Below are positions 4,906 to 47,801 of a stretch of DNA of 64,000 nt, one piece after another. Source of the stretch: Eledone cirrhosa (Eukaryota). Position 1 is the first letter of the stretch; every line of letters starts with the position of its first letter. Location: assembly GCA_964016885.1 (NCBI GenBank), contig OZ024744.1, positions 69,378,001 to 69,442,000 on the forward strand, read 5' to 3'. The notes below the pieces were generated by a model. That model did no database searches and was not told the DNA's origin. It saw only the letters and a list, made by a program, of their open reading frames with translations. Both the position numbers and the translations under genes were made by a program.

Positions 4906-5045
4906 ATTGCTTTTGACAACAGCTGGTGATATGCATGTAAGTAAATATTCTCTTTATCTGATATTTTGTAACTAACCTTACATAGATCGATATCGAAGTA
5001 TAGTTACGATGTATTATCATCACCTAGAAACGATCGTAAAGCAGT
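4906..5045 (+). ncRNA. Type I hammerhead ribozyme candidate, U3-A8 core, about 105-nt stem II
   Basis: Stem I ATTGCTT/AAGCAGT; core TTGACAA (4913-4919) and GAAA (5027-5030); stem II includes GGTGAT/ATCACC; stem III palindrome ACGATCGT; GUA site. Lies downstream of, and on the same strand as, the PLE fragment at 3345. Confidence 0.6.
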
Positions 5046-5349
5046 GAAGTATATTTCTAATGACTTGATTTTTTATTTCAAAAAGCCCGAATTAGTACGG
5101 CTAGTAATTCGGGCTGTTAGTTTACAAACACACCGAGCATTATAATAAATGTTCGGTAAACCCATACGTACATATATATATATATGCATGTATGTATATA
5201 CATACTACTGTACGTCTGTATACATATATGTATGTACGTATACATACTTATATTTAAGTTTCAGCCGAACTAAGAGTGAGAAATTAAATTTCATTTTTTC
5301 CATTTATATATATATATATATATATATATATATATATATATATATATAT

Positions 5350-5530
5350 ATAGGAACCAGTAAGACCCCGACGGCTGAGCTCAAGCCGTTTCGACGGCTA
5401 ATTCTGGACAGAATTAGCCGCCGAAACGGCTTGAGCTCAGCCGTCGGGGTCTTACTGGTTCCTATTACCCACTCTACTACTCTTTGGTGCGTTATGGTCC
5501 ACCTGGTTCCTTACCACATTTCCTTCGTTA
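5350..5530. mobile_element. Miniature fold-back insertion in (TA)n
   Basis: Arms 5350-5406 and 5409-5465 (1 mismatch) plus a 65-nt tail; TA tracts on both sides; same family at 21068-21155. Confidence 0.85.
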
Positions 5531-6682
5531 TATATATATATATATATATATATATATATATATATATATATATATATATACATACATATGCTTACATATT
5601 CATACTTACGGTAATTATTGATGCAATTCATTTCAAGCACTCTACGTACTTTTTCCACATGGGAATGACGGAGTATATTTAGCATCATCTGCAACTACTT
5701 CACATTTTCTTATTCTCTCTCTCTCCCTCTCTCTCTCTCTCTCTCTCTCTCTCTCTATATATATATATATATATATATATATATATATATATATATATAT
5801 ATATATATATACTCTGTGGTCTTACAACAGCAAAGAAACATCAATGGAACATGGTTCATTTCGTCCTCCTCCTCCTCCTCCTCCTCCTCCTCCTCCTCCT
5901 CCTCCTCCTCCTCCTCCCCCCTCCTCCTCCTCCTCCTCCCCCCTCCTCCGCCTCCTCCTCCTCCTCCTCATCATCATCATCATCATCATCATCATCATCA
6001 TCATCATCATCATCAACATCATGATCAACATCATGATCAACACCATTATCAAGCCTTTTACGTCTACTTTCTTGCTTGAATAATTTGGATGAATCCCCTT
6101 CATCACAGCGTATTGTCAATGGTATTGCGTTCTTTCAGTAACTCCATTGGAATATTCCGCATCCTGTGATCAGCTTCTTATAGCAATTTTGGCCCCATCT
6201 CTTTCAGGGATTATTCCCACTTACTTCTAACCCTTCTGTAACTATACACATACGTTATATGCCGTGACAGCGTACTCTTCTATGTTGGATATAACGGATG
6301 ATTGCTCTAATATCCTGTTTATTTTTTTCAACTCACCTTTACCTCATTCATGTACACCAGGATTTCCCACTCTTTTTTGCGTCATCACCCACTTTCACAT
6401 GGAAACATTTTCCACCGCCCATCTGTATAGTAAATAATCGATAGTATACCAAAAATGTTTAATAAATGTTTGTTACTGATTCTTTATTGCCTCCTGTTTT
6501 TGTGTTGTTTTTATATATATATATATATATATATATAAATATATTGTTGTTTATATATATATATATATATATAAATATATTGTTGTTTATATATATATAT
6601 ATATATATAAATATATTGTTGTTTATATATATATATATATAAATATATTGTTGTTTATATATATATATATATAAAAAAAAAG

Positions 6683-6862
6683 AAAATCAGTGTTGCGACG
6701 AATGGAATTTATTGAGCATATTACAATTGTTTCTCTGGCGACCAGCTCGAGGCACGATCGATCTGATGATCGAACCTGACTGAAAATCGCAAGGTCCTGT
6801 GAGAGCATCGAGTGCTCAAACGGCCTACTGCATACGGACACTTTAAGCATCCAACACCAATT
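6683..6862 (-). mobile_element. Short TA-flanked repeat, PLE-tail-like
   Basis: Shares AATCAGTGTT..AATTTATT..CATATTACA with 21250-21390 and 21430-21650; the minus strand has GAAACAATTGTA (HHR 3' half). Confidence 0.55.
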
Positions 6863-7269
6863 ATTTATATATATATATATATATGTGTGTGTGTGTGTGT
6901 GTGTGTGTGTGTGTGTGTGTGTGTGTGTGTGTGTGTGTGTGTGTGTGTGTGTGTGTGTGTGTGTGTGTGTGTGTGTGTGTGTGCGTGCGTGCGTGTGTGT
7001 GTGCGCGTGTGTGTGTGTGTGCGTGTGTGTGTGTGTGTGCGCGCACGCGCGCGCGCGCGTGTATACTGGTTCTTTGCAAATCTCCTTTGAATGTTTATTT
7101 CGGGTAGCATATGTTGAAGTATCTTCTCAATACTCAACCTATATCGTCTACAAGAATTTACAATCGCCCACCATTTTCTGTTTACTTGCTCATTGCCTAC
7201 CCAACAATTGAAATTGCCCAGATGTGGGTGATATCACCCAGGTTTGGAAAACCTGACGGACACTAACAG

Positions 7270-7890
7270 GACACACCCATTGAAACAAATGTCATTTATT
7301 TTTTTCAGCTTCCGAATCTCCTCAACATTGGCTACCACGAAACATTGGACCACATACACAAACTCTATATAATCAACCTTTCACTAGAAGAGAGAATCTC
7401 TATTACCTCATCAAGGTAATAGTCCTTGGAACTTATGATCTTGGTAATAAAAGCCATCAAATAACTCCTAGGAGCCTTTCGGAGAAAATTCTTTTTAGTG
7501 GTAATCTGGTTGCTAGTTACTCCTGTATATTTGCCACATGCAAAGTCTACCTTCTCAGTCAGCCTGCCTGTAATCTCATCACCCCTTTTTTCTATACTCT
7601 TTGTTTATATTGACTACGCTGTAAGAAATTTTTACCTTCTTTTTTCCTGTACATTGAACTCAGCCATTTCTCTGATGGCAATAAGTGCCAGCCTTACTTT
7701 GAGGCCTTTTGTTTCCACATCAAGAATCTCTTCATTAGAATTCCTATAGATTCAGCCATATGAATTAAGTCATCAGTATTTAGCAGTTCCTACAGATAGC
7801 CGGTCTTAAACTTCTCCATTATAGACTGGAGAGCAGGACGGGGCTGAGAATCAAGTCTTTATGGTCACCAACCTGCATATTAAATTCCTT
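7270..7890 (-). pseudogene. Decayed RTE-type LINE reverse transcriptase fragment
   Basis: Minus-strand remnants resembling VGVHQGSVLSPLL, ELL(Y)(A)DDLI and GLKVRL..IR. Confidence 0.65.
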
Positions 7891-45355: not shown

Positions 45356-46020
45356 ATAAAATGTTTTAAACATAATTTATATATATATATGTATATATAC
45401 ATATATGTATATATACATTGTGGGAATACGAAGAATGCAAGAACCTGGGGGAGTTTTCCTCATCAGTTGTCTACTGGGGGTCTCGGATATTTCTACGCTT
45501 TAAAGACAAGATACTTACCACCCAGGGCGTTTAATAACTGGTTAAGTTATATATGTATATATATATATATATATATATATATATATATATATATATATAT
45601 ATATATATATATATATATATATATATATATATATATATATATATATATATATATGTATGTATATATATATATATATATATATATATATATATATATATAT
45701 ATATATATATATATATATATATATATATATATATATATATATATATATATATATATATATATATACGTACATATATACGTACATATATACATACATGCAT
45801 GTATGTATATTTGCGTATCCCGGGTTCAATCAGGAGCATCCACAGTAAGTAAGGTACTCAATACATAGCAGAGTATAAATATTTAACATAGAAATGGCTT
45901 CTAAACGACAAGAACTGTTTCATTCCAAGGAAATTGACCCTGGTGATTTCCTTGGAATGAAACAGTTCTTGTGCAGTAGAAGCCATTTCTATGTTAAATA
46001 TATATAATATATATAATATA

Positions 46021-46869
46021 TACAATTCTTGCCACCCTAGACACATTAAAATTAATATTCCCTACAACTTAGCCAAGAGAATCTGTACTATAGTCTCCAA
46101 TAAAAACATCTGTTACTTACGGCTACAAGAACTAAAGGAAACACTCATAAGCAGGGACTGCCCTGCATCACTAATTGACAATGAAATCCAACGTGCCCTG
46201 AAACTCAGTACCCAGGACCTTAGATATCCAAAAGCAAACCAACCGAAACTAAAAGCTCTTCCAGACATCTCCACACACAACCCCCTCAACAATGAGGCCT
46301 TTGACACCATCCTCCAGAACATCCCTATGTTACAGAAGTACCATAGAATGAACGAAATCTTTCGAACACACGATATCATAAAGAGCAAAAGACAATCTAA
46401 GTCAATGAAAAACATCCTAACACATGCCAAGGTACTACCAACGACAACAACGAAACCCACAGTAAAAAAATGCGATAGACCCAACTGTGGCATATACATC
46501 AACCTAATAGAGGGTTCGGAATTCTATTTCAAACAGGGACAACGTTTTATAGTAAAGCACAATTTCACATGCGCATCAGAAAACCTAATATATGTATTAA
46601 CTTGCTCAGGTTGTCGAGAAGAATACATAGGCCAGACTAAAAACAGCCTCCGCCAACGCATGACTGTCCATAGATCCCAAATTAAAATACGGCAATACAG
46701 GAAAATACCACTGAGTGAACACATTGATACCTGTGCCGCCCAAAATCATCCCAACTTCAGAATCTTTCCCCTCTACAAATGTAAAGATAATGCCACCCAC
46801 ACCCAGCGCATCAGCAAGGAATCTTACTTTATTAACAAATACGGACCCCGTCTAAACACTTCTCCCTAA
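46021..46869 (+). CDS. Penelope-like (Neptune-like) ORF, 5'-truncated: RT thumb, Zn-motif linker, GIY-YIG
   Basis: NSCHPRHIKINIPYNLAKRI; KKCDRPNC..HNFTC; NLIYVLTCSGCREEYIGQT..LRQRMTVH; ESYFINKYGPRLN. Open frame begins right after a TA run. Confidence 0.92.
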   Translation, partial: YNSCHPRHIKINIPYNLAKRICTIVSNKNICYLRLQELKETLISRDCPASLIDNEIQRALKLSTQDLRYPKANQPKLKALPDISTHNPLNNEAFDTILQNIPMLQKYHRMNEIFRTHDIIKSKRQSKSMKNILTHAKVLPTTTTKPTVKKCDRPNCGIYINLIEGSEFYFKQGQRFIVKHNFTCASENLIYVLTCSGCREEYIGQTKNSLRQRMTVHRSQIKIRQYRKIPLSEHIDTCAAQNHPNFRIFPLYKCKDNATHTQRISKESYFINKYGPRLNTSP

Positions 46870-47244
46870 GACGAACCCACAACATACACACGTCCACATA
46901 CATACCTACATCAACATACATCCTACATACATTTTAATCCACAAGTATCCCATACGGCAGGGCCTAATGGATTCCCTTGAAGTACGTACAATCTGGACAC
47001 ACTCACACTCACACACACCTTGGTGTTATGACAATACTATGCATCATTGCACCTCTTTTATTATTGAACATTCACGTGACTTCTACCGACCAATCAAAAT
47101 TATAGTGCTTATTCACGTGACATTCAACAACCAACCAAATCACGAACGCTCTATCTCAAAATTATTTTTGAAAAGCATTTGAAATGCGCAACCGGTAAAA
47201 AACTTAAAACTAACACTGAATACTAACCATTACTTATTACTCAT

Positions 47245-47427
47245 TGGTGGATTGGCAGTATCGGTAGAGGGTCGGACGCCATGCTTTGACGCATAGAGTT
47301 ACGACCCTTGCCATTCTGAGTTCAAATCCCGCCGAGGTTAACTTTGCCTTTCATCCTTACGGGGTCGATAAAATAAAGTACCAGTAATGTACTGGTAATT
47401 TCTGGCCTTGTGCCAATAGTGGAAACA
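47245..47427 (+). mobile_element. SINE with 13-bp TSD
   Basis: ATTACTTATTACT on both flanks. Confidence 0.9.
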
Positions 47428-47753
47428 ATTACTTATTACTAATTTATACTTATTCCTAATTAAACTATTTTTCACTGGAAAAATCTGTCAGCATTTTCTT
47501 TTCCTTTTTACTAATATATATATATATATTGGAGAGGAAGCACACAAGTTAGGATATATATATATATGAAAACTAGGAGAAAAAGACGATTATTAGGAAG
47601 AAAAATATTTTTTTCCCCTTTTTATTTTTTCTCTCTTTTTTTCTGGGTTAGAAAATGATTAAAACGAAATATTTTACTTTGTATGAAGTGTTAAGGTACT
47701 AGTTGATTTATTTATTACTTAACAATAGCATTTATTTATTTATATATTTAATA

Positions 47754-47801
47754 ATTGTCTATTACCGGTTTCAGCATTTTTATGCATTATCAAATGATAA
47801 T
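47754..47801 (-). ncRNA. Minimal hammerhead candidate, U3-A8 core, 3' of PLE ORF
   Basis: Minus: ATTATCAT-TTGATAA-T-GCAT-AAAA-ATGC-T-GAAA-CCGG-TA-ATAGACAAT; ACCGGT palindrome; GUA site. Confidence 0.7.

What the first reader, a model, noticed from the sequence alone, without database searches (positions are those of the whole stretch)
4906..47801. Four unrelated hammerheads share a compensated U3-A8 catalytic core
Seen: at 4913 (TTGACAA), 15935 (TTGATAA, both arms), 44337 (TTGATAA) and 47787-47793 minus (TTGATAA), the CUGANGA box is replaced by UUGANAA. Stem I, GAAA, palindromic stem III and a GUH site are all in register. Known: positions 3 and 8 form a tertiary Watson-Crick pair, and U3-A8 is a tolerated but uncommon natural variant. 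Inferred: the double change in four families with different stems suggests a selected variant lineage rather than decay; canonical-core searches would miss it.
Basis: partly seen in the sequence, partly recalled or inferred. Interest (0 to 1): 0.78.

Follow-up and report, generated by a model that had tools for sequence, protein, structure and literature searches.

The report
Penelope hammerheads with recurrent U-A core
The four motifs are real hammerhead-ribozyme sequences in repeats of Penelope-type jumping genes, and their swapped U-A core pair is the norm of each family and likely arose several times, but this swap was already reported for such elements and cutting activity here is untested.

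Summary
Observation confirmed: five U3-A8 type I hammerhead motifs lie at the stated places (0.075 expected per shuffled window). U3-A8 is the family state, not decay: U3 in 120 of 120 and A8 in 117 of 120 genomic copies. Site 4913 lies behind a Hydra-type Penelope endonuclease and 47793 behind a Neptune-type RT-endonuclease; 15935 and 44337 are short non-coding units. They are not one lineage. The closest relatives of 4913 and 44337 keep C3-G8, and a protein tree rejects one U3-A8 clade (p 0.0025 on the longer alignment, not on the endonuclease alone). One true lineage exists: the Neptune-type group of 47793 has 19,490 U3-A8 against 14 C3-G8 pattern matches genome-wide. About 21% (29 of 136) of sampled copies belong to U3-A8 families. 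U3-A8 in Penelope hammerheads was published in 2014, and this scan noted it before in other genomes. The odd extra: a missed sixth site (47168) belongs to a young family with U3-A8 plus C in place of the conserved A13 (4,054 against 24 matches), which suggests cleavage may be dispensable. Activity is untested. Low to moderate interest.

The parts
4904..5047 (+). Hammerhead A: stem I 4904-4912/5039-5047, core TTGACAA 4913-4919, 107-nt stem II, GAAA 5027-5030, palindrome ACGATCGT 5030-5037, predicted cleavage after A5038
   Evidence: family U3 30/30, A8 29/30
3344..3535 (+). 3' end of the Hydra-type GIY-YIG endonuclease of the element that carries A (5'-truncated copy); the hammerhead lies 1.24-1.38 kb behind the endonuclease in this family
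15930..16019 (+). Hammerhead B: stem I 15930-15934/16015-16019, core TTGATAA 15935-15941, 59-nt stem II, GAAA 16001-16004, palindrome ACTACGTAGT, predicted cleavage after C16014
   Evidence: family U3 30/30, A8 29/30
15598..15687 (-). Mirror copy of hammerhead B (core 15682-15676) in the left arm of the inverted repeat
15417..16200 (.). Inverted repeat, arms 15417-15776 and 15841-16200, 99% complementary; two opposed pieces of the 590-595 nt B unit
44329..44377 (+). Hammerhead C: stem I 44329-44336/44370-44377, core TTGATAA 44337-44343, 4-bp stem II, GAAA 44358-44361, palindrome ACAGCTGT, predicted cleavage after C44369
   Evidence: family U3 30/30, A8 30/30
43981..44496 (+). C unit (period about 316 nt) with a partial tandem copy and a short inverted copy; no protein-coding partner found
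47755..47801 (-). Hammerhead D: core TTGATAA 47793-47787, 4-bp stem II, GAAA 47772-47769, palindrome ACCGGT, predicted cleavage after A47763; weak stem I
   Evidence: family U3 30/30, A8 29/30
48204..49475 (-). Frameshifted remnant of the Neptune-type RT plus GIY-YIG ORF that carries D (hammerhead about 425-445 nt behind the stop)
47165..47200 (+).
46027..46866 (+). RT thumb plus GIY-YIG endonuclease of the Neptune-type element that carries E2

Best explanation
These are type I hammerhead motifs in the terminal repeats of Penelope-like retroelements and their likely non-autonomous derivatives, in which the C3-G8 core pair has been replaced by U3-A8 in several separate families, likely by repeated compensatory change in the replicating master copies; they are predicted to cut only as dimers and weakly. 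Shown: anatomy, family-wide U3-A8, position behind RT-endonuclease genes for A, D and E2, C3-G8 sister families for A and C, and a large U3-A8 lineage for D/E. Inferred: C3-G8 is ancestral; the route is two transitions (C to U, G to A) through a U-G wobble, favoured by an AT-rich genome; what is conserved is a Watson-Crick pair at 3-8, not U-A as such; two copies in tandem pair their stem III palindromes and cut the precursor RNA into units. The window copies are truncated insertions and are likely inert.
For: Family state; in an outside public data set (2 runs, one sample, contigs, 919 and 807 laid) no other letter at 5% or more was listed in the core of D. Linkage to Penelope genes. Sisters: A' has CTGAAGA in 21 of 21 copies, the same palindrome, an endonuclease 60% identical to that of A, and two-sided changes in stem I; the C3-G8 family cl7 is 70% identical to C over 345 nt. 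Tree: U3-A8 needs 2 changes among the coding families, and one clade is rejected at p-AU 0.00245. Lineage: 19,490 U3-A8 against 14 C3-G8 matches with the ACCGGT palindrome. Census: strict descriptor 43 C3-G8, 6 U3-A8, no other core in 1.19 Mb. Dimer fold equals or nearly equals the best fold for A, B and C. Literature.
Against: No activity or expression data. On the endonuclease alone the AU test did not reject one clade (p 0.206), and both trees have long branches; A' is represented by its endonuclease only. B's C3-G8 relative is weakly supported (alignment score 65.5 against a shuffle maximum of 55.5; no BLAST hit), and no coding partner was found for B or C. For D and E2 the hammerhead dimer lies 15 and 9 kcal/mol above the best fold. 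In one pairwise mutagenesis of a type III hammerhead only the G-C swap rescued this pair (PMC9901934), so U3-A8 may be nearly inactive. The direction of change is not fixed by an outgroup. The copies aligned were best hits to the window copy, which leans towards its core.
Confidence: 0.78

Rival explanations
1. U3-A8 is a step of relaxed selection: it weakens or silences a ribozyme that the element hardly needs, and the families spread regardless.
For: E2 carries C13 and a 3-bp stem I, yet has 4,054 exact matches with best copies 97-100% alike. D's core box is caught in a competing hairpin. Cleavage was not needed for Penelope insertion in vitro (PMC11167929); Naiads thrive without canonical hammerheads (PMC8557442); mutagenesis data.
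Against: The rest of the core, the palindrome and the stems are kept between families that are only 64-75% alike (D, E1, E2), with two-sided stem changes between A and A'. No family with a mismatched 3-8 consensus was found: the one C3-A8 copy checked is a decayed member of a C3-G8 family.
Confidence: 0.3
2. All U3-A8 hammerheads here descend from one selected variant that spread between elements.
For: True within the Neptune-type D/E group. Exchange of terminal repeats between elements cannot be excluded by a protein tree.
Against: A and C are each far closer to a C3-G8 family than to one another or to D; different stems and palindromes; AU test.
Confidence: 0.07
3. U3 and A8 arose separately in dead copies by AT-biased decay, or the motifs are chance matches.
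For: Both changes are transitions towards A/T; the window is about 35% G+C.
Against: Family-wide double state; 0 of 106 copies of C3-G8 families show U3-A8, 1 shows U3-G8; shuffles.
Confidence: 0.02

Closest known systems
Minimal hammerheads (min-HHR) of metazoan Penelope-like elements, U3-A8 variant of Schistosoma mansoni Cercyon elements (Cervera and De la Pena 2014, PMC4209133)
   Same: Type I, palindromic stem III, place in the terminal repeat, opposite-strand pairs 100-700 bp apart, U3-A8 core (about 1,300 hits against about 2,000 canonical in that genome).
   Different: Here U3-A8 occurs in at least two Penelope clades plus non-coding units, with C3-G8 sister families beside them; copy number is over ten times higher; palindromes are longer (6-10 nt); three of four lack the G10.1-C11.1 pair next to the core; A has a 107-nt stem II.
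Natural U3-A8 core covariants (Perreault et al. 2011, PMC3088659)
   Same: Same covariation of the 3-8 pair; a U10.1-U11.1 mismatch is also reported there, as in D.
   Different: The passages read list no A13C variant and do not treat Penelope families.
Non-LTR retrozymes as non-autonomous Penelope derivatives (bioRxiv 10.64898/2026.07.22.740005)
   Same: B is a 590-595 nt non-coding unit, in tandem in 18 of 30 loci, with a hammerhead in each unit; C's sister cl7 forms 311-nt arrays.
   Different: C itself showed no complete tandem copy in 30 loci; the parts read do not discuss a U3-A8 core.
Hydra and Neptune clades of Penelope-like elements (Craig et al. 2021, PMC8557442)
   Same: A's endonuclease has the CxCX5C linker, no CCHH, and CxxC and CxH around E and N (Hydra); D, E1 and E2 have CX4CxxC plus CCHH at the C-terminus (Neptune type).
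   Different: Assignment is by motif only, without named reference sequences; the paper's core search used CUGANGA, so U3-A8 cores would not have been counted there.

Membership tests
Type I hammerhead, Penelope min-HHR | Core N3-UGA-N-N8-A ... GAAA ... UH with a Watson-Crick 3-8 pair | tested here: met
   A, B, C, D; E2 fails at A13
Type I hammerhead, Penelope min-HHR | Stems I and II can form | tested here: met
   A, B, C clearly; D has a weak stem I; two-sided changes between A and A' in 4 of 17 shared pairs
Type I hammerhead, Penelope min-HHR | Palindromic stem III that allows a dimer | tested here: met
   Perfect palindromes, self-duplex -8 to -13 kcal/mol; dimer fold beats two monomers in all 9 motifs folded
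Type I hammerhead, Penelope min-HHR | G10.1-C11.1 pair next to the core | tested here: inconclusive
   Present in B and E1/E2; A, C, D have an unpaired base on each side first, as do several C3-G8 families of this genome
Type I hammerhead, Penelope min-HHR | Lies in the terminal repeat behind an RT plus GIY-YIG gene | tested here: met
   A, D, E2 at constant distances; not shown for B and C
Type I hammerhead, Penelope min-HHR | Self-cleavage after H17 | not testable with these tools
   needs a bench assay
Rfam hammerhead families | Match to a curated model | tested here: not met
   none among the 150 of 180 rows shown at E up to 10
Penelope-like element, Hydra clade (A) | C-terminal GIY-YIG with CxCX5C linker, no CCHH, CxxC and CxH motifs | tested here: met
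   alignments against the definition
Penelope-like element, Hydra clade (A) | RWK and DKT motifs in the RT | not tested
   no RT core of family A was in hand
Penelope-like element, Neptune clade (D, E1, E2) | RT followed by CX2-5CxxC linker and CCHH GIY-YIG | tested here: met
Penelope-like element, Neptune clade (D, E1, E2) | Groups with Neptune rather than Nematis references | not tested
   no named reference proteins were available; Nematis shares a linker motif
Non-LTR retrozyme | Tandem non-coding units, each with a hammerhead (B) | tested here: met
   18 of 30 loci, period 590-595; no Penelope ORF in 5 loci of 10 kb
Non-LTR retrozyme | Tandem non-coding units, each with a hammerhead (C) | tested here: not met
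   0 of 30 loci with a complete tandem copy, 9 of 30 with an inverted one
Non-LTR retrozyme | Circular RNA made from the units | not testable with these tools
   needs RNA data

The most novel reading that the evidence does not exclude
U3-A8 is a repeatedly taken route to a tuned-down ribozyme in Penelope elements, and the young Neptune-type family E2 has gone one step further to a U3-A8-C13 core. That core is either a new active catalytic variant or proof that an element can amplify to thousands of copies with a dead hammerhead. The sister pairs A/A' and C/cl7 and the series E1/E2 would then be a natural experiment on what Penelope hammerheads are for.
Probability: 0.2. Interest if true: 0.6.

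Novelty: new member of a known kind. Interest (0 to 1): 0.27.

Why it matters
The U3-A8 core itself is known, so the finding as written is ordinary. What this genome adds is comparative material: matched sister families that differ at the 3-8 pair, a U3-A8 lineage of over 23,000 exact pattern matches, and a successful family with a changed A13. The role of Penelope hammerheads is an open question (cleavage was not needed in vitro), and these natural series make it easy to test. In practice, censuses that demand CUGANGA would miss roughly a fifth of the copies here (29 of 136; 95% interval 15-29%).

Tried and rejected
Rfam gave no hammerhead row among those shown. Expression: no RNA holder listed. 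AU test on the endonuclease alone did not reject one clade; the longer alignment did. No coding partner was found for B or C in 60 loci of 3.2 kb and 8 loci of 10 kb. The idea of a family fixed at the C3-A8 intermediate was tested on one of two such sampled copies and rejected: its 14 relatives are mostly C3-G8; the other copy (L195) was not followed beyond an 84% match to a C3-G8 copy. The eleven A3-A8 hits are one satellite in one locus with a 2-bp stem I and were rejected; G3-C8 had no hit and A3-U8 stayed at shuffle level. Two query families (cl25, cl34) were dropped from the census because their BLAST hits were mostly microsatellite or partial; the true A' and cl34 copies in the sample are therefore not counted. 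In one search the position-13 cell of family B is a script error (the pattern caught a GCAA inside stem II); one search corrects it to A in 30 of 30. I guessed from repeat style that the host is a cephalopod and used that in a paper search; nothing here tests the guess. Genome-wide counts of U3-G8 and C3-A8 were not made; only the 1.19 Mb sample bears on them. Literature searches for U3-A8 kinetics and A13C (0 papers) found little; Lunse et al. 2016 and Przybilski and Hammann 2007 could not be read and may hold both.
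Full report
1. Observation. The four stated boxes are present at the stated coordinates. A descriptor with positions 3 and 8 free, a perfect palindrome from A15.1 to U16.1 and a stem I gave 17 hits in the window: 7 C3-G8, 5 U3-A8 (4913+, 15935+, 15682-, 44337+, 47793-) and 5 others, one of them a decayed G3-G8 copy and four long-range chance-like hits. Forty dinucleotide shuffles gave 0.075 U3-A8 and 0.05 C3-G8 per window. The 15935 and 15682 copies are the two arms of one 360-nt inverted repeat; in one transcript they would pair as sense and antisense, not as a ribozyme dimer (inference). 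I call the families A (4913), B (15935), C (44337) and D (47793). Rfam listed no hammerhead among 150 of 180 rows shown.

2. Family state. The 30 best genomic matches of each family were fetched (only 40 candidates of 57, 1,154, 1,980 and 1,560 were scored) and aligned. Position 3 is U in 120 of 120 and position 8 is A in 117 of 120; the exceptions are one G and two T. These are best hits to the window copy, so they lean towards its core. Two checks do not share that lean. Evenly spaced stretches of the genome (119 of 120 asked for, 1.19 Mb) gave 29 copies of U3-A8 families, all with U3 and A8. Contigs of two public runs of one sample showed no other letter at 5% or more in the core of D. Decay of single copies is excluded.

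3. Census. In the 1.19 Mb sample the strict descriptor gave 43 C3-G8 and 6 U3-A8 hits and no other core, against 1.0 hit per shuffle. By family homology, 29 of 136 copies (21%, interval 15-29%) belong to U3-A8 families; two query families with junk hits were dropped first. Among the 106 copies of C3-G8 families, none is U3-A8 and one is U3-G8; one further C3-A8 copy proved to be a decayed member of an old C3-G8 family. The window's share (6 of 14) is not clearly above the sample's (Fisher p 0.09). The density, about 114 per Mb, would mean some 340,000 copies genome-wide; this is a rough extrapolation, inflated by tandem arrays and missing families without a perfect palindrome (one search shows two).

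4. What carries them. A lies 1.24-1.38 kb behind a GIY-YIG endonuclease end in the window (3344-3535) and in several other copies; D lies 423-446 nt behind another. Pfam finds GIY-YIG and RVT_1 in these ORFs, and 181 full-length relatives of D's protein were found; nearly all of the 120 listed carry the same domain set. By the motif definitions of Craig et al. (PMC8557442, passages), A is Hydra-type and D Neptune-type; this is by motif only. B is a 590-595 nt unit, tandem in 18 of 30 loci and with an inverted copy in 16; C is a unit of about 316 nt, inverted in 9 of 30 and never complete in tandem. No Penelope ORF was tied to B or C. Tandem and inverted pieces are the usual Penelope insertion pattern, and such non-coding units are argued to be Penelope derivatives (bioRxiv 10.64898/2026.07.22.740005, parts 1-2 of 5).

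5. One lineage or many. A has a sister, A', with the same palindrome, a 101-nt stem II, 87 of 144 aligned letters identical and an endonuclease 60% identical; its core is CTGAAGA in 21 of 21 copies, and stem I differs by two-sided changes. C is 70% identical over 345 nt to cl7, a C3-G8 unit that forms identical 311-nt arrays on many contigs (all 150 listed of 318 matches 100%). B resembles the C3-G8 family cl3 only weakly. No BLAST similarity links A, B, C and D to each other. Trees of the coding families need two changes of core; holding the U3-A8 families together is rejected on thumb-plus-endonuclease sequences (15 rows, p-AU 0.00245) but not on the endonuclease alone (25 rows, p 0.206). 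So the pair switched at least three times (A/A', C/cl7, D group), probably four; direction is inferred from the C3-G8 majority. Within the Neptune-type group a real lineage exists: D, E1 and E2 form a clade (100/99), share the ACCGGT palindrome and U3-A8, and whole-genome patterns give 19,490 U3-A8 against 14 C3-G8 (controls 9 and 0).

6. How it likely works. Positions 3 and 8 pair in the active hammerhead (PMC3884650, passages). Each stem III is a palindrome too short to fold well alone; in tandem models the dimer fold beats two monomers in all 9 motifs and matches the best fold within 1.4 kcal/mol for A, B, C, A', cl7, E1 and one C3-G8 control, but lies 15 and 9 kcal/mol above it for D and E2 (nearest-neighbour energies, no tertiary contacts). 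The likely role is cutting of tandem precursor RNA into units, as proposed in PMC4209133 (parts 1-2 of 4 read) and PMC6765202 (passages). I infer that U3-A8 recurs because it is two transitions away through a U-G wobble in an AT-rich genome, while G3-C8 and A3-U8 need transversions; neither formed a family in the sample. Activity may be low: Penelope min-HHRs cleave poorly even as dimers; a pairwise mutagenesis found only the G-C swap to rescue this pair in a type III hammerhead (PMC9901934, passages), whereas Perreault et al. state that covaried ribozymes are active in vitro (PMC3088659, passages). An Anolis element's hammerhead needed protein to cleave and was not needed for insertion in vitro (PMC11167929, passages).

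7. The extra family. A sixth U3-A8 site at 47168(+) lies 301 nt behind a second Neptune-type endonuclease. It reads GCAA, with C at position 13, in 25 of 25 copies; exact patterns give 4,054 matches with C13 and 24 with A13, and the 40 best copies are 97-100% alike. A13 belongs to the consensus core. Its stem I is three U-A pairs. A young, abundant coding family with a probably crippled core argues that selection on cleavage can relax in this lineage; it is the most unusual thing here, and is untested. One search for A13C found no paper, which is weak evidence.

8. Known or new. Cervera and De la Pena reported U3-A8 in Penelope hammerheads, with about 1,300 hits in Schistosoma mansoni; a search of that paper's supplements covered two files, and one file could not be searched. 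Natural U3-A8 covariation dates from 2011. Lunse et al. 2016, Przybilski and Hammann 2007 and Martick and Scott 2006 were not available and are known to me only through citing papers or recall; PMC7151607 gave one passage of no direct use. Earlier notes of this scan report the same variant in at least five genomes and none in this one. Interest 0.27.

Noticed in passing
window 47165-47200 (+), with ORF 46027-46866: Young Neptune-type family whose hammerhead has U3-A8 and C in place of A13; 4,054 exact matches against 24 with A13.
   Followed up: yes
L231:6165-7900; G000 C303, C18, C27, C10, C8 and others: cl7, a C3-G8 unit of 311 nt, forms arrays of identical copies (over 20 units at some loci) arranged as two opposed tandem runs on many contigs; it looks like a very recently amplified retrozyme.
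   Followed up: partly
window 3136+, 15111-, 15221+, 16363-, 36983-, 50690+, 59663-, 63098+, 16487+: About eight canonical C3-G8 hammerheads and one decayed G3-G8 copy; sampled genome density about 114 copies per Mb, far above the counts quoted in the 2014 paper.
   Followed up: partly
window 59663-63098: Hydra-type ORF remnant (61886-61071, minus) flanked by two C3-G8 hammerheads in opposite orientation, a typical Penelope insertion.
   Followed up: partly
window 11306-11844 (-); L210, L153, L254: Further Penelope families (CX4CxxC linker) whose 3' repeats hold C3-G8 hammerheads with a non-palindromic stem III; some copies have A in place of G12.
   Followed up: no
L105, L137, L121, L122, L173: Several abundant Hydra-type families showed no hammerhead within 2.5 kb behind the endonuclease, although Hydra elements are said always to have one; long microsatellite-rich 3' regions or nested insertions may explain it.
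   Followed up: partly
window 47787-47802 (-): In family D the U3-A8 box can pair with the sequence just upstream in a short hairpin that needs A8 and would block the active fold.
   Followed up: partly
window 27250-27322 (+): tRNA-like sequence (ARAGORN tRNA-Ser CGA; Rfam tRNA 44.3 bits), possibly a SINE head.
   Followed up: no
window 29605-31011 (-): Fragments of a non-LTR retrotransposon RT ORF unrelated to the Penelope elements.
   Followed up: no
window 43732-43869: A near-perfect inverted repeat around a TA microsatellite, hit weakly by microRNA models; likely a transposon-derived fold-back.
   Followed up: no
P0013, P0031, P0047, P0051, P0092, P0102: Penelope RT-endonuclease proteins labelled as bacterial gill symbiont proteins; likely host DNA in metagenome bins, as Craig et al. 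note for similar cases.
   Followed up: no
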